Positions 6,642 through 58,544 of a DNA stretch of 58,781 bases are shown one piece after another. The stretch spans positions 64,001 to 122,781 of the IMG/VR virus record IMGVR_UViG_2879469214_000007. One strand, given 5' to 3'. Below the pieces are notes generated by a model. The model did no database searches. It saw only the letters and a list, made by a program, of their open reading frames with translations, and was not told the origin of the DNA. Each line of letters opens with the position of its first letter. Positions within the stretch are counted from its first letter, which is position 1. Made by a program: the position numbers and the translations under genes. The stretch comes from a virus (taxonomy: Duplodnaviria; Heunggongvirae; Uroviricota; Caudoviricetes).

Positions 6642-6675
6642 AGCCTTTCCCTTCCTCTCTTGAATTATAATTATA

Positions 6676-7380
6676 TTATAACATATTTAATGCTCTTAAC
6701 ACAATGCCGCGCTCGATGTGCTCAAGATTAATTGCTGAGACATCTCTATTCTTTAGCCAAACCTCCGAGTGCTTACCTCTTGCCTTCTCCAATGGATTTG
6801 ACTGGTCGAAGTTCGACTCACGGACTATCATGGAGAATCTAAAGCACGGCTTTGATGGCGCATCAGGTACTCTGTGCAAGTGCCTTGAATTAAAGGTTAC
6901 AAATGTATCCTGTGGTATTTCCCTTGCTTTGAAATTTTCAATCCTGTGTTTATTTTCCTCGATGTATCTTCTGAACTCATAATGGTCTAAATCCTTAACC
7001 GAGTCATCAGCTTCAAGAATTGCTGGTTCTGCTAAAAATTCCGTTACTAAATCCGTGTAGCCGATAAGGATGTGAAACTTTTCATCAAACGAGTAATACG
7101 GACATCCCATAGAGCCGTCACAATGCCAGTCTGTGGTTCTCATGGCTACGGTCTGTGGCGTAAGGCACTTCAAGTCTACAGTCACACATATATTATTATA
7201 CTCATGCGTTATTGGAACCTGATTTAAGAGCCATTGATTAAATTCTCCACCGTGCCTATAGAAATCATCAACATCTGCCCTTGTAAACATTGGGCTTCTC
7301 AAGATTTCAGCAATCTTTGGTAGCTCGATTTTATTTCCAATCCCTAGTGTGTCATATCCCTCAAACAAAAGTTTTTCCAA
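6676..7380 (-). CDS. Fe(II)/2OG oxygenase-like paralog 4
   Basis: WHCDG ... HLHR and FRFSMIVRESN; TTG start. Confidence 0.75.
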   Translation of the reverse strand: MEKLLFEGYDTLGIGNKIELPKIAEILRSPMFTRADVDDFYRHGGEFNQWLLNQVPITHEYNNICVTVDLKCLTPQTVAMRTTDWHCDGSMGCPYYSFDEKFHILIGYTDLVTEFLAEPAILEADDSVKDLDHYEFRRYIEENKHRIENFKAREIPQDTFVTFNSRHLHRVPDAPSKPCFRFSMIVRESNFDQSNPLEKARGKHSEVWLKNRDVSAINLEHIERGIVLRALNML

Positions 7381-51424: not shown

Positions 51425-51524
51425 TTTGGTAACTAAAATCAAAAAATTGATTTCCAATCTATTCGGCGGCAAGAAGAAAAAGGTCGAAGAGGTTGAGGGA
51501 TTCAAGAAAGCATACGGGAAGTGA
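51411..51524 (+). CDS. 37-aa basic amphipathic peptide
   Basis: ATG 51411 gives MAVDNLVTKIKKLISNLFGGKKKK..., filling the gap between two genes. Confidence 0.45.
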   Translation: MAVDNLVTKIKKLISNLFGGKKKKVEEVEGFKKAYGK

Positions 51525-51528
51525 CTAT

Positions 51529-52317
51529 ATGGCTAATATAACAATTCAATTTATGGGAACAGGCAGTTCCTTTTCAAAGAAATACGGCAACACCAGTGCA
51601 TTAATCTTTATTGAGAACAATGGAACTACTAAAAAGCTTTTGATTGATTGCGGCAGAACAACGCCGGACGACCTCGCAAGCCTTGGCTACAGCTTTGCCG
51701 ATGTAGATGCTATATTTATCACCCATTTGCATGGCGACCATGTGTATGGGCTTGAGGAAGCCGCTTTCGTGGGCAGATATGTGATTAACAAAAAGCCACA
51801 CCTTATCTTTCCTCATGAAAAGCTCAAGACAGACCTTTGGGAGAGGGTTCTCAAGGGCACAATGATGAACGGTGACTTGCCAAGGCTCATGACTATGGAA
51901 GATTACTTTGTGAGCACCATTGTTGAGCGCGAAGAACAATACTTCTTCTTGAACGATGTAATGTTCTCCGTCTTCCCTACTGTTCATATCAAAAACAAGA
52001 AGTCATACGGCGTAATCATCGGTGAACGAGATTTTATCATCTACTCCGGCGATTCCATGTTAAACAAAGACCTGATTGATATTGGATTCATCAACGACTG
52101 CCAAGCAGTGTTCCATGATTGCCAGATGTTTCACACTGAGGATAGGGTTCATGCGTCACTCGAAGACCTCTTGACTCTTGATGAAAGCATCCGTGAGGAT
52201 GTCTATATCATGCACTATGGAGACGACCTTGAGGAACATGTTGAACGCATTCACGGCGAAGGTTTTAAGGTTGCAGTTCGCGGGGAAAAATATCAGTTCG
52301 TAGTAAAAGAGATTTGA
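51529..52317 (+). CDS. apyc1: MBL-fold cyclic nucleotide phosphodiesterase, Apyc1 (anti-Pycsar)-like
   Basis: GTGSSFSKK, LLIDCG, THLHGDH, GLEE, LWE..LKG, YSGDS, FHDCQ, VHASLEDLL and MHYGD follow the Apyc1 motif order as recalled. The start was reassigned to ATG 51529. Confidence 0.75.
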   Translation: MANITIQFMGTGSSFSKKYGNTSALIFIENNGTTKKLLIDCGRTTPDDLASLGYSFADVDAIFITHLHGDHVYGLEEAAFVGRYVINKKPHLIFPHEKLKTDLWERVLKGTMMNGDLPRLMTMEDYFVSTIVEREEQYFFLNDVMFSVFPTVHIKNKKSYGVIIGERDFIIYSGDSMLNKDLIDIGFINDCQAVFHDCQMFHTEDRVHASLEDLLTLDESIREDVYIMHYGDDLEEHVERIHGEGFKVAVRGEKYQFVVKEI

Positions 52318-52386: not shown

Positions 52387-52899
52387 GTGAAGCCTACGAA
52401 TAAATACACAATGAAAGAAACCATGGATGTCGCTAAACAGGCATCCTTGGAAATTGAACAATACCTATGGCAACAACCCGAAACACTGGGCGTTGTTAAT
52501 CTGGAAGACGACCCTTATTTCCAATCACTAGATATTGACTTGGTTTGGGAAACAAAAGACGGCGTGTTCCTCGTTGAAATCAAAGGTGATAGATATTATC
52601 GCACCGGGAACTACTTCTTTGAGGTAGTAAGCAATCAAAGCAAGAACTCATTGGGATGTTTTATGTATACCGAAGCTGATTTCGTCTTTTATTATTTCAT
52701 TGATGAAAAAGAGCTTCATGTCCTCCCCATGCCCCAAACCAGAGAATGGTTTAATGAGAACAAAGACAGATATCAGCAAAAGACGGTTTCTACTTCGGTT
52801 GGTACGGGAAGATATTTAACGGTTGGCAAGCTGGTACCAAGGGATGAAGTTAAGGGTAAAAAAGTCGTAAATCTTTCCGTCCTTGACAAATTGGCTTAA
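52387..52899 (+). CDS. PD-(D/E)xK nuclease-like protein
   Basis: DIDL..VEIKGD..TGNYFFE..EADF pattern; GTG start. Confidence 0.55.
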   Translation: MKPTNKYTMKETMDVAKQASLEIEQYLWQQPETLGVVNLEDDPYFQSLDIDLVWETKDGVFLVEIKGDRYYRTGNYFFEVVSNQSKNSLGCFMYTEADFVFYYFIDEKELHVLPMPQTREWFNENKDRYQQKTVSTSVGTGRYLTVGKLVPRDEVKGKKVVNLSVLDKLA

Positions 52900-52911
52900 T
52901 CGTGTTATAAT
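52883..52911 (+). promoter_or_regulatory. Strong sigma-A promoter for the RNA-repeat array and the DUF2828 gene
   Basis: TTGACA-N17-TATAAT with an extended TG. The downstream TATATTTATAAGATAACA is nearly identical to that of the promoter at 55058. Confidence 0.8.
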
Positions 52912-52930
52912 ATATTTATAAGATAACAGT

Positions 52931-52994
52931 TAGACGCAAACAGCAATCCAATACTAATTCATATGCGAATGAATAAAACAGTCTATTGCGTCTA
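52931..52994 (+). ncRNA. ACAGCAA stem-loop unit 1
   Basis: TAGACGCAA/TTGCGTCTA closing stem; ACAGCAA at 52940. Confidence 0.6.
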
Positions 52995-53005
52995 GTCCGA
53001 ACGTT

Positions 53006-53120
53006 TAGGCGGTCACAGCAAATCAAAAAAACATTAAAATAATACTAAATTGATTATTATATTTGATTTATCTCATGTGACATAGGTTTCCTCCAACAAA
53101 CCCTACCATATAACCGCCTA
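53006..53120 (+). ncRNA. ACAGCAA stem-loop unit 2
   Basis: TAGGCGGT/ACCGCCTA stem; ACAGCAA at 53015. Confidence 0.6.
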
Positions 53121-53139
53121 GTCCTTATGCTGATTTTAC

Positions 53140-53227
53140 AGGCACACACAGCAAACCATTTGTATCCTACAGGATAAAAAGACAATCGTTTGATTCATAA
53201 ATTAAATGAGAATACTATCTGGTGCCT
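53140..53227 (+). ncRNA. ACAGCAA stem-loop unit 3
   Basis: AGGCAC/GTGCCT stem; ACAGCAA at 53148. Confidence 0.55.
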
Positions 53228-53232
53228 AGAAA

Positions 53233-53318
53233 AAGACGCATCACAGCAAACTGCTAAAAGAGTAAATTACGATATACTTATAATATATTTATAATATAAA
53301 TTAACCTTTTAGCGTCTT
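53233..53318 (+). ncRNA. ACAGCAA stem-loop unit 4
   Basis: AAGACGC/GCGTCTT stem; ACAGCAA at 53243. Confidence 0.55.
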
Positions 53319-53350
53319 GTTTACAAAATCGAAAAGGAGAATTGCCTTAA

Positions 53351-54835
53351 ATGTTAAACCATCTTAAAGCGGCAACAAACGTTGCATACACAGAGAACGG
53401 AGCACGAGCTTTTGCAACAACTCAAAGCGCACTGCTTGATATGTTCGCCCAAGGCGGCGCACTTCGTAACCGCTCTGATTCCGATAAAATTAAACTGTTT
53501 ACTAAAGCATTTGCGGAAAATTCCACTCTCGCTATGAGAATGCTGTTTTACTTCCGTGATGTTCGCGGCGGTCAAGGTGAGCGCAATACTTTCCGTGTAA
53601 TCGTTCGCTATCTGGCTGACCACCACACTGATGCAATGAGACGTAACCTCGGTTGGATTTCATTCTTCGGTCGCTGGGATGACTTGTATGCATTTGTCGG
53701 TACTAAACTTGAGAAGGATGCTTTCGGCATTATCACAAGCCAGTTCCGTGAAGATGTTTCAAGCGAACGCCCTTCCCTACTAGGTAAATGGCTCAAATCA
53801 GAAAACGCTTCTTCTTACGAGACTAAAACCCTTGCTAAGAAAACTCGTGAATCTCTGGATTTGACACCACGACAATACCGCAAGGCTCTGTCGGCACTTC
53901 GCTCTCGTATCGCTATCGTTGAATCACAAATGAGTGCAAATGAATGGACAGATATCGACTACAGCAAATTGCCATCGCAAGCTAGCCTTCGTTATCGTCA
54001 AGCCTTCTATCGTCACGACCTCGATGGATATCAAGGATATATTGATTCCCTGAAACGCGGCGATGCTGGTGTAAAAGTAAATACAAAAACCCTTTATCCA
54101 TACGAAATTGTCCATGAAATCTTTTCTGGTAAAGTTCGCGTCGGCAACAAGTACAATGTTCAGTTCGGCAATGCCGCAAATGAAGATATGCTTAATGTGA
54201 TGTGGGAAAACTTGCCTGATTACTTCAATGGAAACACTGAAAACTCTCTTGTGGTTGTTGACACAAGCGGCTCTATGTACGGATTGCCAATCGAAATTGC
54301 GGTTTCCCTTGGTATCTATGCGGCAGAAAGAAATAAAGGTAAGTTCCACAACCACTTTATGACTTTCAGCAACCGTCCAGAGCTTGTTGAACTGCAAGGC
54401 ACAGGAATTGTGGAGCGTGTTCGCAACATGAGCCAAGCAAACTGGGATATGAATACAGATATTAAGCGTGTCTTTGACTTGGTGCTTAAGACTGCTATTG
54501 AAAACAGTTTGCCACAGGATGAAATGATTGGACGCATCTACATCGTGTCTGACATGGAGTTCGATGGTTGTGTCACAGGCGGCAACAACCAAACCCTGTT
54601 CCAAACCATTGAGAGTGAATACCGTGCGGCTGGCTACACAATGCCTAATCTGGTGTTCTGGAATGTAAATGCAAGAGGAAGCCAATTCCCTACTGATATG
54701 ACTGCCACTGGCGTTCAATTGGTAAGCGGAGCAAGCCCTAGCATCTTTACAAACCTCCTGAAAGGTTCTATGTTAAGCCCATACGAGCTGATGCTTGATG
54801 TAATTAACAGCGAACGCTACGGTGTAATTTCGTAA
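53351..54835 (+). CDS. DUF2828/TROVE-like helical protein with vWA domain (Ro60-related RNA-binding candidate)
   Basis: TENGA..LLDMF..FYFRDVRGGQGER, GRWDDL, GKWLKSE, MIDAS VDTSGSM, TFS, SDMEFD, FWNV and VSGASP. Confidence 0.8.
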   Translation: MLNHLKAATNVAYTENGARAFATTQSALLDMFAQGGALRNRSDSDKIKLFTKAFAENSTLAMRMLFYFRDVRGGQGERNTFRVIVRYLADHHTDAMRRNLGWISFFGRWDDLYAFVGTKLEKDAFGIITSQFREDVSSERPSLLGKWLKSENASSYETKTLAKKTRESLDLTPRQYRKALSALRSRIAIVESQMSANEWTDIDYSKLPSQASLRYRQAFYRHDLDGYQGYIDSLKRGDAGVKVNTKTLYPYEIVHEIFSGKVRVGNKYNVQFGNAANEDMLNVMWENLPDYFNGNTENSLVVVDTSGSMYGLPIEIAVSLGIYAAERNKGKFHNHFMTFSNRPELVELQGTGIVERVRNMSQANWDMNTDIKRVFDLVLKTAIENSLPQDEMIGRIYIVSDMEFDGCVTGGNNQTLFQTIESEYRAAGYTMPNLVFWNVNARGSQFPTDMTATGVQLVSGASPSIFTNLLKGSMLSPYELMLDVINSERYGVIS

Positions 54836-54842
54836 TAACTAT

Positions 54843-54870
54843 GGGGAGCCTAAAAACTCCCCTTTTTATT
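54843..54870 (+). terminator. Intrinsic terminator after the DUF2828 gene
   Basis: GGGGAG/CTCCCC stem followed by TTTTTATT. Confidence 0.7.
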
Positions 54871-54944
54871 TTCCTAAAAAGGCATAGCATCATTTATTAG
54901 ACTTCAAGAAGTTGAGTATTTATCTGATTAAAAAAACAATATAT

Positions 54945-55032
54945 GGTGTGCGTGTTGGAATAGTAAACAAGTCGGACTGTGAATCCGGTGGGCATAACGC
55001 CCTTGCGAGTGCAAGTCTCGTCGCATACCCCA
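54945..55032 (+). tRNA. trnH: tRNA-His(GUG) with long variable arm
   Basis: Anticodon loop CTGTGAA; 8-bp acceptor with G-1:C73; encoded CCA; 16-nt variable region. Confidence 0.8.
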
Positions 55033-55057
55033 CGTAATTATAACTTTTTGTTTATCC

Positions 55058-55087
55058 TTGTCGAACTTCGATAACAAATGTTATAAT
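55058..55087 (+). promoter_or_regulatory. Sigma-A-like promoter for the tRNA cluster
   Basis: TCC-TTGTCG-N18-TATAAT with an extended TG. Confidence 0.65.
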
Positions 55088-55114
55088 ATACTTATAAGAT
55101 AACATATTAACCGT

Positions 55115-55189
55115 TGGGGATTAGCCAAATGGGACGGCAGAGGACTTTGACCCCTCTATGAAGTGGTTCGATTCCACTATCCCTAGCCA
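55115..55189 (+). tRNA. trnQ: tRNA-Gln(UUG)
   Basis: Loop CTTTGAC; acceptor TGGGGAT/ATCCCTA; CCA. Confidence 0.9.
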
Positions 55190-55208
55190 ACGTTTTACAA
55201 ATTAATAT

Positions 55209-55284
55209 GGCGCTATGGTCAAGTGGTCAAGACACGGTGCTTTCACCACCGAATCGGCGGGTTCAACTCCCCCTAGCGTCACCA
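55209..55284 (+). tRNA. trnE: tRNA-Glu(UUC)
   Basis: CGGTG-CTTTCAC-CACCG; acceptor GGCGCTA/TAGCGTC; CCA. Confidence 0.9.
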
Positions 55285-55331
55285 ACGTATCACCAAATTA
55301 AAATTACATATCAAAAGGAGAGGTTTTATAG

Positions 55332-56006
55332 ATGCCAGCACCAAGGACAGGTAGAGCAACAACAAAACAGGAAACTCAAGCAACACTCGTGGCGGCTTAC
55401 AACGCGGTACTCGATGAACAGCGCGTAGCATTTGAAGCGGAGATTGCAGAGGAAAGAGCTAAATTCGAATCTGAAAAAGCAGAGCAATTAGCCGCATGGA
55501 AGAAAGAACTTGCACGAACTAAGGAAGAAGATAACTACCAGTTTAACAAAGAAAAGCGCGACCGCGAAGATGAACTCAAAGTTGAACTAGCTAAGCGTGT
55601 GTCTGATGTAACTGAGCGTGAAACTAAGGTTAAGGAACGCGAATCCGCTATCGGAGATGCAGAAGCAACAATTGCTAAGCTTCAAAAATCTGTTGATGAC
55701 ATTCCAGCTATCACCGTAAAAGCAGAAGCAACTGGTGTAACGAAAGGCGCGGCAGAAGCTAAGAAAGAAGCAGAAGCGAATGCACGCATTAAAGAAGCTG
55801 AGACTAATGCTAAGGAATCTATCCTGAACAACCAAATCACTGCTTTGAAAGCAAGTGAAGAAACTCAAACGGCTACAATCGCACGACTTAATGAAGAACT
55901 TAAAGCGGCTAACGCTCGTGTTCAAGAGATTGCTAACAATGCTGTTCATTCAGCAGGGCTATCTAAAGTAACTGTACAGAATGCACCAGCCGGAAACGGT
56001 CGATAA
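55332..56006 (+). CDS. Coiled-coil protein
   Basis: 224 aa rich in Ala/Glu/Lys with heptad character; SD AAGGAGAGG; followed by a terminator. Confidence 0.8.
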   Translation: MPAPRTGRATTKQETQATLVAAYNAVLDEQRVAFEAEIAEERAKFESEKAEQLAAWKKELARTKEEDNYQFNKEKRDREDELKVELAKRVSDVTERETKVKERESAIGDAEATIAKLQKSVDDIPAITVKAEATGVTKGAAEAKKEAEANARIKEAETNAKESILNNQITALKASEETQTATIARLNEELKAANARVQEIANNAVHSAGLSKVTVQNAPAGNGR

Positions 56007-56015
56007 GATTTAACT

Positions 56016-56031
56016 GCCCCTTCGGGGGCTT
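56016..56031 (+). terminator. UUCG hairpin after the coiled-coil gene
   Basis: GCCCC-TTCG-GGGGC followed by TT. Confidence 0.55.
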
Positions 56032-56036
56032 AATAA

Positions 56037-56111
56037 TCCGAAGTAACTCAGTGGTAGAGTAATCCGCTGTTAACGGAGAGGTCGGGGGTTCGAATCCCTC
56101 CTTCGGAGCCA
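56037..56111 (+). tRNA. trnN: tRNA-Asn(GUU)
   Basis: Loop CTGTTAA; acceptor TCCGAAG/CTTCGGA; CCA. Confidence 0.9.
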
Positions 56112-56114
56112 TAT

Positions 56115-56186
56115 GCCTTTACTAATGGATTTAGCACCGTGACTACGAATCATGGTTGGGGAGTTCGATTCTCTCTAAGGGCACCA
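56115..56186 (+). tRNA. trnR: tRNA-Arg(ACG) with shortened D-arm region
   Basis: Loop CTACGAA; acceptor GCCTTTA/TAAGGGC; CCA; only 72 nt long. Confidence 0.7.
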
Positions 56187-56222
56187 CGTAATAATGTAAT
56201 ATAGCGAACAGTTGGAATCGGC

Positions 56223-56292
56223 TACCTAGTATAAACGACATCACAAGATGGGTTGACTTGCGCCCCTCAAAAGGCAAGCTACAGACTAGGTA
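56223..56292 (+). ncRNA. Unassigned three-way-junction RNA candidate
   Basis: TACCTAGT/ACTAGGTA closing stem enclosing CATC/GATG and CTTGC/GCAAG hairpins. Confidence 0.4.
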
Positions 56293-56307
56293 TTACTTAT
56301 TTCATAT

Positions 56308-56383
56308 GCATCCTTATATCAACTGGGAGATTATCACTCTTACAAAGTGAAGGTTACAGGTTCGAGTCCTGTAGGGTGTACCA
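56308..56383 (+). tRNA. trnV: tRNA-Val(UAC)
   Basis: TCACT-CTTACAA-AGTGA; T-loop TTCGAGT; CCA. Confidence 0.9.
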
Positions 56384-56387
56384 TTTT

Positions 56388-56461
56388 GGGGTCTTAGTAT
56401 AAAGGGATTACATTCGGCTTGCAACCGAATAATAGGGGTTCAATTCCCCTAGATTCCACCA
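56388..56461 (+). tRNA. trnA: tRNA-Ala(UGC)
   Basis: TTCGG-CTTGCAA-CCGAA; G3.U70 present; CCA. Confidence 0.9.
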
Positions 56462-56464
56462 CGT

Positions 56465-56610
56465 TCCTTGCAACTCTACGCATAAACGAGCAGTTTTTAA
56501 CAGGCTTTTCTGCTTTATCAAAAATAATCCCAACGTTGCTAGAGGTAGAAAAGGTTCTCTACGCGCCTGTTCCGCACATTGGTTCGATACAGGTAACAAG
56601 AGATGCAGGA
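56465..56610 (+). ncRNA. Unassigned ~146-nt structured RNA candidate
   Basis: 5'/3' closing stem TCC(T)TGCA.CTCT / AGAG.TGCAGGA; internal hairpins GCAG/CTGC, TAGAG/CTCTA and CCTGT/ACAGG, the last enclosing TTCGAT. Confidence 0.4.
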
Positions 56611-56640
56611 GATGCCGCCCTGCCTAGCACATCATAATAT

Positions 56641-56717
56641 TGTCTAGTATATCAGTGGTTTAGATAGTCCGTCTGATAAGCGGGAGGTCGCTGGTTCGAA
56701 TCCAGCCTAGACAACCA
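56641..56717 (+). tRNA. trnI: tRNA-Ile(GAU)
   Basis: Loop CTGATAA; acceptor TGTCTAG/CTAGACA; CCA. Confidence 0.9.
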
Positions 56718-56718
56718 T

Positions 56719-56792
56719 GGCTCCGTAGTATATGGGTATCATCTTCGCCTGTCACGCGAAAGAAACGAGTTCGAGTCTCGTCGGAGCCGCCA
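56719..56792 (+). tRNA. trnD: tRNA-Asp(GUC)
   Basis: TTCGC-CTGTCAC-GCGAA; acceptor GGCTCCG/CGGAGCC; G73; CCA. Confidence 0.92.
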
Positions 56793-56797
56793 CGTAT

Positions 56798-56870
56798 CGC
56801 AGGGAGAATTGGTATTCAAATTCGTTTCATAAGCGAATCTCCGTGGGTTCAATCCCCACTCCTGCGACCA
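56798..56870 (+). tRNA. tRNA with CAU anticodon (elongator Met or Ile2)
   Basis: Loop TTCATAA; fully paired acceptor CGCAGGG/TCCTGCG; compact D-arm; CCA. Confidence 0.7.
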
Positions 56871-56892
56871 ATAAACGTAAAGAGGTTTTCTT

Positions 56893-57060
56893 ATGGTCGA
56901 TAAAGATTTAGTTTTACAATTAAGGCAAGAAACAGGTATGGGAATGCTTGATTGCAAAAGAGCTTTAGAGAAATCAAATGGCGACTATGCTAATGCTAAA
57001 ATCTTCTTAGTTGAACAATGGGAAATAACTAAAATGGTTTCTTTTATTACCTACAGATAA
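56893..57060 (+). CDS. 55-aa protein resembling the EF-Ts N-terminal (UBA-like) domain
   Basis: Not in the ORF track (<60 aa). Hand translation gives MVDKDLVLQLRQETGMGMLDCKRALEKSNGDYANAKIFL..., with SD AGAGG. Confidence 0.75.
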   Translation: MVDKDLVLQLRQETGMGMLDCKRALEKSNGDYANAKIFLVEQWEITKMVSFITYR

Positions 57061-57071
57061 TCTAATAATAT

Positions 57072-57147
57072 AGCTGGCGGGAGGTAGGCATCTCATTGGG
57101 TTTCATAAGCCCGACTAATCTGGTTCAATTCCAGAGCGAAGCAACCA
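57072..57147 (+). tRNA. Initiator-like tRNA-Met(CAU) with imperfect acceptor stem
   Basis: Loop TTCATAA; GGG/CCC in the anticodon stem; 1:72 mismatch plus an extra bulge/mismatch; CCA. Confidence 0.65.
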
Positions 57148-57154
57148 AAACGTA

Positions 57155-57219
57155 AAGGCACTAACAGCAACTCATACACAACTACTTTCAATTTGGTGAA
57201 AACATGTGATATGTGCCTT
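57155..57219 (+). ncRNA. ACAGCAA stem-loop unit 5
   Basis: AAGGCAC/GTGCCTT stem; ACAGCAA at 57164; lies between tRNAs. Confidence 0.6.
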
Positions 57220-57225
57220 GAATAT

Positions 57226-57302
57226 GGACAGTGAGCCGTTCTGGTGGGCGGGGTAGCCTGCAAAGCTACATCAAAGAGGTTCAATTCCTCCACTGTTCTC
57301 CA
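57226..57302 (+). tRNA. trnC: tRNA-Cys(GCA)
   Basis: GTAGC-CTGCAAA-GCTAC; U73; CCA. Confidence 0.88.
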
Positions 57303-57309
57303 ATATCAT

Positions 57310-57381
57310 GACTCTGATAATGTAATGGTAGCATACCTGTCGAGCAGTACAGGAAGCGGAGTTCGAGTCTCCAAAGAGTCC
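57310..57381 (+). pseudogene. tRNA-like element with 8-nt non-canonical anticodon loop and no CCA
   Basis: Acceptor GACTCT/AGAGTC; D-loop TAATGGTAG; CCTGT-CGAGCAGT-ACAGG; T-arm GGAG-TTCGAGT-CTCC. Confidence 0.6.
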
Positions 57382-57391
57382 TCTTTAATAT

Positions 57392-57486
57392 GGATAGTTA
57401 CCGAAGCGGTCATAACGGCATGGTCTTGAAAACCATTGTGTCAGCTCGTATCTGACTCGGGGGTTCAAATCCCTCACTATCCGCCA
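57392..57486 (+). tRNA. trnS: tRNA-Ser(UGA)
   Basis: ATGGT-CTTGAAA-ACCAT; long variable arm; G73; CCA. Confidence 0.92.
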
Positions 57487-57492
57487 CGTATA

Positions 57493-57586
57493 TCGACACA
57501 TACAGCAATTACTATCTCCCAAATATATCTAAGGATAACTATACCCAAACCTTTACTGTAAGATATGAGAACTTACAATGTGTCGA
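57493..57586 (+). ncRNA. ACAGCAA stem-loop unit 6
   Basis: TCGACACA/TGTGTCGA stem; ACAGCAA at 57502. Confidence 0.6.
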
Positions 57587-57596
57587 GCGTTTATCC

Positions 57597-57625
57597 TTGC
57601 CAAATGATAATATTTATATTATAAT
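57597..57625 (+). promoter_or_regulatory. Sigma-A-like promoter
   Basis: TCC-TTGCCA-N17-TATAAT. Confidence 0.65.
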
Positions 57626-57647
57626 TGTATTATAAGGAGTTGAGCTA

Positions 57648-57803
57648 ATGTACAAGTCTTCACGATATGACTATAGCAAACATCCCGATTATGAAAGACC
57701 ACGCAAGGTAGAAAGAAAACTGTTGCATAAGAAGTTTAGAGCTTATGAGAAACAATGCGTAAAAATCCATGAAGAAATTAGACCAATGAAAAGTAGAGGA
57801 TGA
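57648..57803 (+). CDS. 51-aa basic hypothetical protein
   Basis: SD AAGGAG and ATG 57648; MYKSSRYDYSKHPDYERPRK...; directly behind a promoter. Confidence 0.6.
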   Translation: MYKSSRYDYSKHPDYERPRKVERKLLHKKFRAYEKQCVKIHEEIRPMKSRG

Positions 57804-57843
57804 CAAAGATGAAGAGTGACAAGGAAAGCCACAAACTTAATAT

Positions 57844-57918
57844 GGAGCTATAGTGAAACGGTTATCACAGTTGCCTTTTAAGCAATCATTTCGGGTTCGA
57901 ATCCCGGTGGCTCCACCA
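57844..57918 (+). tRNA. trnK: tRNA-Lys(UUU)
   Basis: Loop CTTTTAA; acceptor GGAGCTA/TGGCTCC; CCA. Confidence 0.92.
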
Positions 57919-57944
57919 AAACAAAACGTAAAGGAGATTCCATT

Positions 57945-58181
57945 ATGAGCAATAGAGTTGAGTTACCAATAGAGATAACTTTCGACTTGATGATATTTAG
58001 ATGGAGCCTTCGCCAACTAGCCTTTAACCAAGAGTTCCTTGAAAAGAAGCTTGGCAGAGCGGTTGACTCAACGAAAGAAATGTTCGTAAAAATCAATGAT
58101 AAGTATGAATTACCAGTAATAATTGACAACGATTTAAACGAATATGAAGTAACTTATATTCATCGCAGTATTAAATATTAA
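57945..58181 (+). CDS. Hypothetical protein
   Basis: 78-aa ORF with SD AAGGAG, between tRNA genes. Confidence 0.65.
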   Translation: MSNRVELPIEITFDLMIFRWSLRQLAFNQEFLEKKLGRAVDSTKEMFVKINDKYELPVIIDNDLNEYEVTYIHRSIKY

Positions 58182-58182
58182 T

Positions 58183-58271
58183 GGATAGATACCCAAGTGG
58201 TTTAAGGGGTTCCTCTGCTAAGGGAATAGGCTGTAACAGGTGCATGGGTTCGAATCCCATTCTATCCGCCA
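58183..58271 (+). tRNA. trnS: tRNA-Ser(GCU)
   Basis: Loop CTGCTAA; long variable arm; acceptor GGATAGA/TCTATCC; CCA. Confidence 0.92.
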
Positions 58272-58274
58272 TAA

Positions 58275-58350
58275 CGTCAGGTAGCTCAGTTGGTAGAGCA
58301 TTAGACTGAAAATCTAAGTGTCGGGGGTTCAATCCCCTCTCTGACGACCA
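58275..58350 (+). tRNA. trnF: tRNA-Phe(GAA)
   Basis: TTAGA-CTGAAAA-TCTAA; canonical D-arm; CCA. Confidence 0.92.
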
Positions 58351-58354
58351 CGTA

Positions 58355-58450
58355 ATTCCATTAGTTTAATGCCCTGCTCCTTCCAAGTGTATGGCGGCAA
58401 AATACTCGCCTTCCAAGCGTGAGTTATCAGTTCGAATCTGGTATGGAATT
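58355..58450 (+). tRNA. Atypical tRNA-Gly(UCC) with a 25-nt second anticodon arm inserted in the D-loop; no CCA
   Basis: Acceptor ATTCCAT/ATGGAAT; CTTCCAA loops at 58380 and 58410; U73. Confidence 0.65.
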
Positions 58451-58457
58451 GTTTTAT

Positions 58458-58544
58458 GAGAGTATAGAGCGTAATTGGTAGCGTCCCAGACTGTAAATCT
58501 GGCGGCTTCGGTCCTTGGGGGTTCAAGTCCCTCTGCTTTCACCA
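58458..58544 (+). tRNA. trnY: tRNA-Tyr(GUA)
   Basis: CCAGA-CTGTAAA-TCTGG; long variable arm; CCA. Confidence 0.92.

What the first reader, a model, noticed from the sequence alone, without database searches (positions are those of the whole stretch)
52931..57586. Six-copy structured RNA family (closing stem + invariant ACAGCAA) linked to a DUF2828/TROVE-vWA gene and the tRNA cluster
Seen: four units lie in tandem between a strong promoter (52883) and the DUF2828 gene, and two more lie between tRNAs (57155, 57493). Each has a 6-9 bp stem whose sequence differs between copies but always pairs (natural covariation), ACAGCAA 0-2 nt after the 5' arm, and a variable AT-rich interior; units are 64-115 nt long. 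Established: Ro60/TROVE proteins bind Y RNAs through a stem formed by the RNA 5' and 3' ends, and Y RNA genes are usually adjacent to the protein gene. Inference: these are Y-RNA-like partners, or an autoregulatory leader, of a DUF2828 protein, forming a possibly undescribed ribonucleoprotein system for RNA repair or anti-defence.
Basis: partly seen in the sequence, partly recalled or inferred. Interest (0 to 1): 0.82.

Follow-up and report, generated by a model that had tools for sequence, protein, structure and literature searches.

The report
Phage Ro60-like protein's ACAGCAA-handle RNAs
A large Paenibacillus-type phage carries six small structured RNA modules that share one "handle" (a closing helix followed by ACAGCAA) beside a gene for a protein that folds like the RNA-binding autoantigen Ro60; the same pairing recurs in very different phages and bacteria, I found no published description, and the two probably form a Y-RNA-like RNA-protein particle.

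Summary
Six same-strand units (64-117 nt) each have a 6-11 bp Watson-Crick closing stem, 0-3 spacer bases, ACAGCAA and a variable interior. Four lie between a consensus promoter and the DUF2828/DUF7788 gene; two lie between tRNA genes. Nothing else in the 122.8-kb record matches.

Rfam 15 has no family for them. A covariance model built from such units finds them on the gene's strand beside DUF2828 genes in phages of Bacillus, Listeria, Staphylococcus, Enterococcus, Mycobacterium, E. coli and Campylobacter. An exact-motif scan found at least one in 138 of 160 metagenomic DUF2828 loci. Five tRNA-rich phages without the gene have none.

The stem covaries (7 of 7 pairs); between close relatives the handle is kept while the interior drifts. 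The protein's predicted fold matches only Ro60 structures. In relatives some units enclose a tRNA-like domain laid out as in bacterial YrlA Y RNAs.

The Y-RNA-like partner reading is therefore supported by comparison, although transcription and binding are untested. The autoregulatory-leader reading is unlikely.

The handle also matches the published pattern of Dictyostelium Class I RNAs. This scan had already noted the same pairing in at least 120 other genomes, and I found no publication describing it.

The parts
52883..52911 (+). Sigma-70-type promoter (TTGACA, 17 nt, TG-TATAAT) that would drive units 1-4 and the DUF2828 gene.
   Evidence: It matches 12/12 with a TG extension. The same layout, a promoter followed directly by the first unit, is seen in Bacillus phages Tsamsa and vB_BcoS-136.
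52929..52996 (+). Unit 1, a handle RNA with an 11-bp stem, ACAGCAA at 52940 and a short interior.
   Evidence: Model R1 scores it 52.2 bits, E 9e-9. The stem closes the fold. A compensatory G>A / C>T change is seen in the 94% relative.
53005..53121 (+). Unit 2, with a 9-bp stem, ACAGCAA at 53015 and a 117-nt body with an AT-rich interior.
   Evidence: The fold z-score is -3.6. The handle is invariant in L097 and L098 while the interior diverges. R1 finds only its 5' half (13.7 bits) because the interior is long.
53140..53227 (+). Unit 3, with a 6-bp stem and ACAGCAA at 53148.
   Evidence: R1 scores it 20.6-23.2 bits. Fold. It is conserved in L097 and L098.
53233..53318 (+). Unit 4, with a 7-bp stem and ACAGCAA at 53243. 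Its interior holds a second copy of the promoter's 17-mer.
   Evidence: R1 scores it 25.3 bits. Fold z-score -3.5. The 17-mer copy lies at 53278-53294.
53351..54835 (+). Gene for a 494-aa DUF2828 + DUF7788 protein with a predicted Ro60-type helical-repeat ring plus a vWA domain carrying an intact DxSxS MIDAS motif.
   Evidence: Pfam. PHROG 850, 'RNA-binding protein'. AlphaFold2 model, pLDDT 82. The top 13 Foldseek PDB hits are all Ro60/TROVE structures. D304, S306 and S308 are invariant.
54843..54870 (+). Intrinsic terminator that closes the unit-array plus DUF2828 transcription unit.
57155..57219 (+). Unit 5, lying between tRNA-Met (57069-57142) and tRNA-Cys (57226-57302).
   Evidence: R1 scores it 47.1 bits, E 1e-7.
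57493..57586 (+). Unit 6, starting 7 nt after tRNA-Ser (57392-57486) and lying just before a promoter at 57597.
   Evidence: R1 scores it 26.3 bits. Fold.
54946..58544 (+). The tRNA gene cluster that hosts units 5 and 6. It holds 16 standard tRNAs plus atypical ones and is cut by the end of the contig.

Best explanation
The six units are genes, or processed modules of longer transcripts, for small non-coding RNAs. They share one protein-docking handle: a terminal helix joining the 5' and 3' ends, followed by single-stranded ACAGCAA. The co-encoded DUF2828/DUF7788 protein is a ring-plus-vWA protein with the Ro60 fold, and it most likely binds this handle as Ro60 binds the terminal stem of Y RNAs. 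That would give a phage ribonucleoprotein. Units 1-4 would be made from the strong promoter on the same transcript as the protein's mRNA. Units 5 and 6 would be released from the tRNA operon by the enzymes that cut out the neighbouring tRNAs. The variable interior would be the displayed or effector part. In relatives it is often a tRNA-like domain (T arm, acceptor-like hairpin, D arm), as in bacterial YrlA. The particle therefore probably engages enzymes that act on tRNA or structured RNA during infection, either for RNA quality control or repair or as a decoy against host RNA-targeting defences. Shown here: the anatomy of the units, their conservation, their covariation, their exclusive linkage to the gene, and the protein's predicted fold. 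Inferred: transcription, processing, binding and biological role.
For: Anatomy: there are six units with exact ACAGCAA and closing stems, and no other match in the whole 122.8-kb record.

Linkage in cultivated phages: R1 scans of ten complete phage genomes (about 1.4 Mb) place every hit with E<0.01 within about 3.5 kb of the DUF2828 gene and on its strand. The hosts are Bacillus, Listeria, Staphylococcus, Enterococcus, Mycobacterium and Campylobacter, plus weaker hits in E. coli and Vibrio phages. The units lie upstream of the gene in some phages and downstream in others.

Linkage in metagenomic loci: in 80 IMG/VR DUF2828 loci, 170 of 171 R1 hits are on the gene strand. My own descriptor counts 172 units on the + strand against 13 on the - strand, with permuted-motif controls giving 4-13. 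At least one unit is present in 66 of 80 loci, and the median distance upstream is 466 nt. In 80 loci from bacterial and archaeal assemblies the counts are 212 against 12, with 72 of 80 loci positive.

Negative control: T5, T4, K, Bastille and LP65 carry tRNA genes but no PF11443 (DUF2828) match. They give no R1 hit below E=0.1, and the PF11443 search was validated on the window's own genome.

Stem: 98.6% of cells are paired, 7 of 7 pairs show compensatory changes, 0 of 500 shuffles reach the observed values, and slid registers give 27-45% pairing. Between 94% and 70% relatives the handle is kept or compensated while the interiors diverge.

Protein: the top 13 PDB fold matches are all Ro60/TROVE structures, including Rsr and the Thermus phage phiLo Ro60 (E 1.5e-6 to 4e-5, TM 0.43-0.59).

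Y-RNA likeness: the middle unit of mycobacteriophage MiniMac matches Rfam YrlA positions 23-89 (37.7 bits, E 1.3e-5). The long units of humlepung, ZJGS3 and MiniMac fold in the V-T-AS-D order of YrlA: variable hairpin, T arm, acceptor-like stem-loop, D arm (layout as in PMC4201824).
Against: There are no expression, processing or binding data for any member. None of the six units of this window has a tRNA-like interior, and their interiors evolve fast, so the effector idea rests on relatives. The handle differs from the known Ro60-binding motif (GNCGAA/CGAA), and the protein is not a TROVE member by sequence, so binding is argued from fold and linkage only. Units 1-4 have no obvious processing sites between them. 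The covariation count was made on an alignment fitted to the model. About 14% of DUF2828 loci show no exact-motif unit, though several of these are short contigs.
Confidence: 0.7

Rival explanations
1. The four tandem units are a cis-acting autoregulatory leader of the DUF2828 mRNA. The protein would bind its own 5' UTR to control translation or stability, and the units would have no role in trans.
For: In this window units 1-4 fill the whole space between the promoter (52883-52911) and the ribosome-binding site, with no terminator between them. Upstream placement is the commonest arrangement: 160 of 172 units in IMG/VR loci.
Against: In MiniMac, SEP9 and the Felix O1-type phage humlepung the units lie downstream of the gene. 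In this window two units sit 2.3-2.7 kb downstream, behind a terminator and a separate promoter, between tRNAs. In Bacillus phages many copies are scattered through the tRNA cluster as far as 3 kb upstream. Some copies enclose complete tRNA-like domains, which a leader does not need.
Confidence: 0.1
2. The units are RNA-processing spacers or signals of phage tRNA operons (targets of RNase III, P, Z or Y) and sit near DUF2828 only because that gene often neighbours tRNA clusters.
For: Units 5 and 6 and many copies in Bacillus and Felix O1-type phages lie between tRNA genes. DUF2828 genes often adjoin tRNA clusters.
Against: Five tRNA-bearing phages without DUF2828 have no units. MiniMac and SEP9 carry three units each directly after the gene with no adjacent tRNA cluster. 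An invariant 7-nt single-stranded motif at a fixed distance from the helix base is more typical of a protein-binding site than of a nuclease stem.
Confidence: 0.1
3. The units act at the DNA level as small inverted-repeat elements, for example miniature mobile elements or recombination or replication sites.
For: Each unit is bounded by an inverted repeat and has an AT-rich variable interior.
Against: Polarity is strict: 170 of 171 hits, and 384 of 409 descriptor hits, are on the gene's coding strand. The conserved motif is asymmetric. Compensatory changes keep the pairing. The handle is conserved from GC-rich mycobacteriophages to AT-rich Firmicutes phages while the flanks differ. There is no transposase or target duplication.
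Confidence: 0.03

Closest known systems
Ro60 (Rsr, TROVE + vWA) with Y RNAs: bacterial and phage YrlA/YrlB/Yrn1 (Rfam RF02553; Chen et al. 2014, PMC4201824) and Thermus phage phiLo Ro60 with Yrl1/Yrl2 (PMC12135203).
   Same: A ring-plus-vWA protein is encoded next to several small RNAs on the same strand. The RNA ends pair in a terminal stem with a conserved motif near the 5' strand. Each locus has several RNAs. In relatives the other module is a tRNA-like domain in the same V-T-AS-D order.
   Different: The protein belongs to Pfam DUF2828/DUF7788, not TROVE, and has 10-14% identity to solved Ro60 structures. The RNA motif is ACAGCAA rather than GNCGAA/CGAA. No unit reaches the YrlA gathering score. 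The six units of this window have no tRNA-like domain. I found no publication that links DUF2828 to any RNA.
Dictyostelium Class I RNAs (Rfam RF01414; Kjellin et al. 2021, PMC7919456; search pattern printed in Mosig et al. 2006, PMC5054030).
   Same: These are about 60-nt RNAs with a short stem joining the 5' and 3' ends, a conserved motif directly after the 5' arm whose last seven bases are ACAGCAA, a variable remainder, and clustered multi-copy genes. The published pattern is GTTGRC-CTT-ACAGCAA ... GTCAAC-TG. It has the same order and spacing as the phage handle, including the W-G after the 3' arm.
   Different: They are eukaryotic, have their own upstream promoter element, and are reported as unique to Dictyostelia. 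The RF01414 model does not hit the window's units. Their known direct binder is an RRM protein (Rnp1A). I could not test whether Dictyostelium encodes a DUF2828 homologue. A match of 7 nt plus architecture could be convergence.
Small stable RNAs encoded in phage tRNA clusters, and the skipping-rope RNA (RF02924).
   Same: They are non-tRNA structured RNAs embedded among phage tRNA genes. This window itself has a skipping-rope RNA at 56535-56631.
   Different: They share no sequence or structure with the units and have no known link to DUF2828. The statement about phage small stable RNAs in tRNA clusters is from my own general knowledge.

Membership tests
YrlA (Rfam RF02553, bacterial/phage Y RNA) | Score at or above the family's gathering threshold (69 bits). 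| tested here: not met
   No YrlA match overlaps any unit in the window at E<=10; the only YrlA row is a 23.4-bit match to a tRNA T arm at 58243-58299. In the relative MiniMac the tRNA-like core alone scores 37.7 bits.
YrlA (Rfam RF02553, bacterial/phage Y RNA) | The 5' motif GNCGAAN0-1G, thought to contact Ro60. | tested here: not met
   All units carry ACAGCAA at that place instead. The motif definition is from PMC4201824.
YrlA (Rfam RF02553, bacterial/phage Y RNA) | A tRNA-like domain (T arm, acceptor-like stem-loop, D arm). | tested here: not met
   None of the six window units has one. It is present in long units of relatives: MiniMac, humlepung, ZJGS3 and Bacillus phages.
YrlA (Rfam RF02553, bacterial/phage Y RNA) | Encoded next to a Ro60 orthologue. 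| tested here: inconclusive
   The neighbour has the Ro60 fold but is DUF2828/DUF7788, not TROVE, by Pfam.
Dictyostelium Class I RNA (Rfam RF01414) | A short stem joining the 5' and 3' ends, with a conserved motif directly after the 5' arm. | tested here: met
   The published pattern ends in ACAGCAA.
Dictyostelium Class I RNA (Rfam RF01414) | Score at or above the gathering threshold (41.5 bits). | tested here: not met
   The RF01414 search of the whole 122.8-kb record gives one 11-bit chance match elsewhere and none on the units.
Dictyostelium Class I RNA (Rfam RF01414) | The full 11-nt motif CCTTACAGCAA and a conserved 5'-terminal G. | tested here: inconclusive
   Only the last 7 nt are shared. 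The 2-3 bases before ACAGCAA vary in the phage units.
Ro60 / TROVE protein family | A helical-repeat ring plus a C-terminal vWA domain. | tested here: met
   In the AlphaFold2 model (pLDDT 82, pTM 0.81) the 13 best PDB matches are all Ro60 structures and align over the full length. This rests on a predicted structure only.
Ro60 / TROVE protein family | Sequence match to Pfam TROVE or to solved Ro60 chains. | tested here: not met
   Pfam gives only DUF2828 and DUF7788 at E<=0.01. phmmer against PDB sequences finds no Ro60.
Ro60 / TROVE protein family | The MIDAS motif (DxSxS) in the vWA domain. | tested here: met
   D304, S306 and S308 are invariant in 30 homologues.
Ro60 / TROVE protein family | Binds Y RNA through the terminal stem. 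| not testable with these tools
   This needs RIP, EMSA or a solved structure.

The most novel reading that the evidence does not exclude
The stem-plus-ACAGCAA handle is the recognition element of an ancient RNP family built on DUF2828 (Ro60-fold) proteins and spanning phages, bacteria and eukaryotes. On this reading the orphan Class I RNAs of Dictyostelium, thought unique to social amoebae, are the eukaryotic branch of the same RNA family, and their missing partner is a DUF2828 homologue.
Probability: 0.25. Interest if true: 0.9.

Novelty: new variant of a known kind. Interest (0 to 1): 0.8.

Why it matters
Ro60-Y RNA particles are a classic but still poorly understood RNA-surveillance system, known in animals, about 5% of bacteria and a few phages. 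If this reading is right, a second, much more widespread phage and prophage branch exists. It would have its own protein family (DUF2828, in 696 of 50,697 phage records, including Felix O1-type, P100/A511-type and Campylobacter phages) and its own RNA handle.

That would give DUF2828 a function and add a new RNA family that could be submitted to Rfam. It would explain many unannotated gaps in phage tRNA clusters. It would also give tractable models (E. coli, Salmonella, Listeria, M. smegmatis) for asking what Ro-type particles do during infection, for example in tRNA repair or as decoys against host RNA-cleaving defences. The shared handle would also make the function of Dictyostelium Class I RNAs directly testable.

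Tried and rejected
- Rfam 15 at gathering and at E<=10 finds nothing on the units and nothing on the units of three Bacillus phages beyond tRNA-like cores.
- Nucleotide searches of the region against 50,697 phage records, by megablast and blastn, gave no match. The RNA family is therefore invisible to plain sequence search.
- RF01414 (Class I RNA) run on the whole record gives no hit on the units.
- A sequence search of the PDB with the protein finds no Ro60; only the fold search finds it.
- RtcB is absent from the 122.8 kb held for this genome. The RNA-ligase link seen in Listeria phage P100 therefore cannot be claimed here.
- Literature searches for DUF2828, for Ro-like proteins with Y RNA in bacteriophage, for TROVE in phage and for ACAGCAA found no description of this pairing.
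- The two Wolin-lab reviews and Avesson et al. 2011 are not held.
- The first MAFFT alignment of 21 short units misplaced several 3' arms. I rebuilt it from 14 units with the same spacing.
- Model R1 is weak on long units and on the 9-nt-spacer handles of enterobacterial phages, so its counts are lower bounds.
- I considered a hammerhead-like core in the short interiors and dropped it, because no consistent core is present.

Full report
WHAT IS THERE. The window is the 3' end (64001-122781) of a 122.8-kb IMG/VR virus record. Earlier notes of this scan describe the record as a Paenibacillus phage-like element of about 160 kb. A consensus promoter (TTGACA, 17 nt, TG-TATAAT) lies at 52883-52911 and a DUF2828 ORF at 53351-54835. 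Between them are four tandem units: 52929-52996, 53005-53121, 53140-53227 and 53233-53318. Two more lie in the tRNA cluster: 57155-57219, between tRNA-Met and tRNA-Cys, and 57493-57586, 7 nt after tRNA-Ser.

Each unit has a 6-11 bp stem (Watson-Crick pairs except a terminal G-U in two of the longest), 0-3 spacer bases, an exact ACAGCAA, a variable AT-rich interior of about 40-90 nt, and then the 3' arm, usually followed by (A/T)G. The distance from the helix base to ACAGCAA is nearly constant at 8-9 nt. The other 19 ACAGCAA sites in the window lack such stems. All six units keep the closing stem in both the MFE and the centroid fold, and ACAGCAA is mostly unpaired. A terminator follows the ORF at 54843-54862, so units 1-4 and the gene form one predicted transcription unit.

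NOT A KNOWN RNA FAMILY. Rfam 15 gives nothing on the units at gathering thresholds or at E<=10. In the region it finds only tRNAs and a skipping-rope RNA at 56535-56631.

THE PROTEIN. The ORF is DUF2828 (PF11443) plus DUF7788 (PF25043) and belongs to PHROG 850, 'RNA-binding protein'. Sequence searches do not connect it with TROVE or with solved Ro60 chains. An AlphaFold2 model built from 30 homologues has pLDDT 82 and pTM 0.81. Its 13 best PDB matches are all Ro60 structures: Xenopus and human Ro60, Deinococcus Rsr, a TROVE-domain crystal structure and the Thermus phage phiLo Ro60. These have E 1.5e-6 to 4e-5, TM 0.43-0.59 and full-length alignments. Only isolated vWA domains follow in the ranking. 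The vWA MIDAS residues D304, S306 and S308 are invariant.

THE SAME UNITS ELSEWHERE. tblastn finds the protein in 696 of 50,697 phage records. The nearest cultivated relatives, at 45-48% identity, are the Bacillus phages PJN02, Tsamsa and vB_BcoS-136. All three show the same units, with stems following WAGRCRC and the motif ACAGC(A/G)A. The units lie both between tRNAs and directly upstream of the gene, and in Tsamsa and vB_BcoS-136 the first one again follows a promoter directly.

The decisive case is the GC-rich mycobacteriophage MiniMac. Its 'Ro-like RNA binding protein' is DUF2828/DUF7788 by Pfam. It is followed, not preceded, by three units with stems GGACACA, GGACCCC and GGACGG, each followed by ACAGCAA.

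Units also flank the gene in Listeria phage P100 (three upstream) and Staphylococcus phage SEP9 (three downstream). They do so too in Campylobacter phage F360 (two upstream) and Enterococcus phage ZJGS3 (two or three upstream). The Felix O1-type coliphage humlepung has four downstream among its tRNAs. A Vibrio phage has one weaker, TCAGCAA-type copy after its tRNA cluster.

SPECIFICITY. I built a covariance model, R1, from 14 short units, giving a 7-bp helix.
- In the window's whole record it finds only these units (five at E<=1, the sixth partially).
- In ten complete phage genomes (about 1.4 Mb) every hit with E<0.01 lies within about 3.5 kb of the DUF2828 gene, on the same strand.
- In 80 IMG/VR DUF2828 loci (850 kb, both strands) 170 of 171 hits at E<=1 are on the gene's strand.
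- An independent descriptor (exact ACAGCAA plus a stem of at least 6 bp) counts 172 units on the gene strand against 13 on the other. Permuted heptamers give 4-13. At least one unit is present in 66 of 80 loci, and 160 of the 172 units are upstream, at a median of 466 nt.
- In 80 loci from bacterial and archaeal assemblies, mostly gut Clostridia but also Synergistota, Treponema and Gammaproteobacteria, the counts are 212 against 12, with 72 of 80 loci positive.
- Five tRNA-bearing phages without the gene (T5, T4, K, Bastille, LP65; 724 kb) have no hit below E=0.1. The PF11443 (DUF2828) search used to show that they lack the gene was validated on the window's own record.

The units therefore travel with DUF2828, not with tRNA clusters as such.

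RNA, NOT DNA. On 31 model-aligned units the helix is 98.6% paired. All seven pairs show compensatory changes, no shuffle out of 500 reaches the observed values, and slid registers give 27-45% pairing. The caveat is that this alignment was fitted to the model. Relatives whose protein is 94% (L097) and 70% (L098) identical keep the same array. Their handles are invariant or compensated: in unit 1 a G>A in the 5' arm goes with a C>T in the 3' arm. Their interiors accumulate substitutions and indels. Strict strand polarity and an asymmetric motif argue against a DNA-level inverted-repeat element.

LIKENESS TO Y RNAs. Chen et al. 2014 describe YrlA RNAs as encoded next to Ro60, several per locus, with a conserved motif near the 5' end. 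They also have a tRNA-like domain in the order V, T arm, acceptor-like stem-loop, D arm. The middle MiniMac unit matches the Rfam YrlA core (positions 23-89, 37.7 bits, E 1.3e-5, below threshold). Long units of humlepung, ZJGS3 and MiniMac fold into exactly that order inside the ACAGCAA-tagged closing stem. One vB_BcoS-136 unit instead encloses a non-permuted tRNA body, tRNA model positions 6-65.

The six units of this window have no tRNA-like part. They are 'plain' members, like the short copies found in every clade. The handle motif (ACAGCAA) differs from the Ro60-type motif, which is GNCGAA, or CGAA in phiLo.

MECHANISM, INFERRED. The handle most likely docks the RNAs on the Ro60-like protein, and the interior is a variable, fast-evolving or tRNA-mimicking payload. 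Units 5 and 6 are placed like tRNA genes, 13 nt and 7 nt after one tRNA, and unit 5 ends 7 nt before the next. The tRNA-processing enzymes that cut out their neighbours would therefore release them as discrete RNAs. How units 1-4 would be separated, or whether they act as one multi-handle leader, is open.

The link with tRNA clusters in many clades, and with an RtcB ligase gene 1.3 kb away in P100, points to a role in tRNA or RNA repair or as a decoy. This recalls the Salmonella rsr-yrlBA-rtcBA operon (named in the scan's earlier notes; I did not check it in a paper). It remains speculative, and this genome's held part has no RtcB.

RIVALS. An autoregulatory leader is contradicted by the downstream and distant copies. 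tRNA-operon processing signals are contradicted by the negative control and by MiniMac and SEP9. A DNA-level element is contradicted by the polarity and the covariation.

WHAT IS KNOWN. Phage TROVE-type Ro60 proteins with Y-like RNAs are published for mycobacteriophages, CcrColossus, Bacillus phage G and Thermus phage phiLo. I found nothing that links DUF2828 to RNAs or that describes the ACAGCAA handle in phages or bacteria.

Earlier notes of this scan report the same pairing in at least 120 other genomes and point to Dictyostelium Class I RNAs. I checked that lead. Kjellin et al. 2021 describe Class I RNAs as 42-65 nt, with a stem joining the ends and an 11-nt motif next to the 5' arm. Mosig et al. 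2006 print the search pattern GTTGRC-CTT-ACAGCAA ... GTCAAC-TG. That is the same order, spacing, heptamer and trailing (T)G as the phage handle. However, the RF01414 model does not hit the window's units, and I could not test whether Dictyostelium has a DUF2828 homologue. This is a resemblance, not membership.

VERDICT. The partner-RNA interpretation is supported by comparative evidence and untested by experiment. The system is a new variant of the Ro60/Y-RNA kind: a different protein family and a different RNA handle, very widespread, and to my knowledge unpublished.

Noticed in passing
window 56535-56631 (+): A skipping-rope RNA (Rfam RF02924, 62.4 bits, gathering score 36.7) sits inside the tRNA cluster between tRNA-Ala and tRNA-Ile. 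The 73 nt before it (56462-56534) are unassigned.
   Followed up: no
window 51493-52317 (+): Two genes upstream of the array lies an Apyc1-like metallo-beta-lactamase-fold gene (PF23023, E 1.9e-39; PHROG 392). It is a candidate anti-Pycsar cyclic-nucleotide hydrolase and keeps the same position in relatives L097 and L098.
   Followed up: partly
window 57310-57381, 56113-56185, 58380-58450 (+): Relaxed ARAGORN finds three tRNA-like genes missed at default settings. One has an 8-nt anticodon loop (four-base anticodon 'agca'). The others are a tRNA-Arg(ACG) and a tRNA-Gly(TCC) (weak Rfam hits).
   Followed up: partly
window 52905-52921, 53278-53294, 55081-55097 (+): The 17-mer TTATAATATAYTTATAA (the -10 box plus the initial transcribed region) occurs at two promoters and once more inside unit 4; a fourth, one-mismatch copy lies on the - strand at 6665-6681. 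None is expected by chance. The copy in unit 4 could be an internal start for the DUF2828 mRNA, or a relic.
   Followed up: partly
window 56893-57060 (+): A 55-aa ORF inside the tRNA cluster has a weak match to the N-terminal (UBA-like) domain of elongation factor Ts (PF25025, E 1.6e-5, below the cut-off).
   Followed up: no
window 56186-56307 (+): An unassigned stretch of about 120 nt between tRNA-Arg-like and tRNA-Val contains a long-range stem (CCTAGT ... ACTAGG). It matches no Rfam family and not model R1.
   Followed up: no
L005 (Listeria phage P100) 5768-7051: An RtcB-type 'tRNA splicing ligase' gene lies 1.3 kb downstream of the DUF2828 gene and its three units. This recalls the bacterial rsr-yrlA-rtcBA operon.
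   Followed up: no
L003 (Bacillus phage vB_BcoS-136) 1934-2057: One ACAGCAA unit encloses a non-permuted tRNA body (tRNA model positions 6-65, 43 bits) whose acceptor stem is replaced by the handle helix.
   Followed up: partly
L101, L116 (genome contigs): DUF2828 loci with ACAGCAA units occur on contigs binned into 'Promethearchaeota' (Asgard archaea) MAGs. These may be viral contigs that were mis-binned, or archaeal viruses.
   Followed up: no
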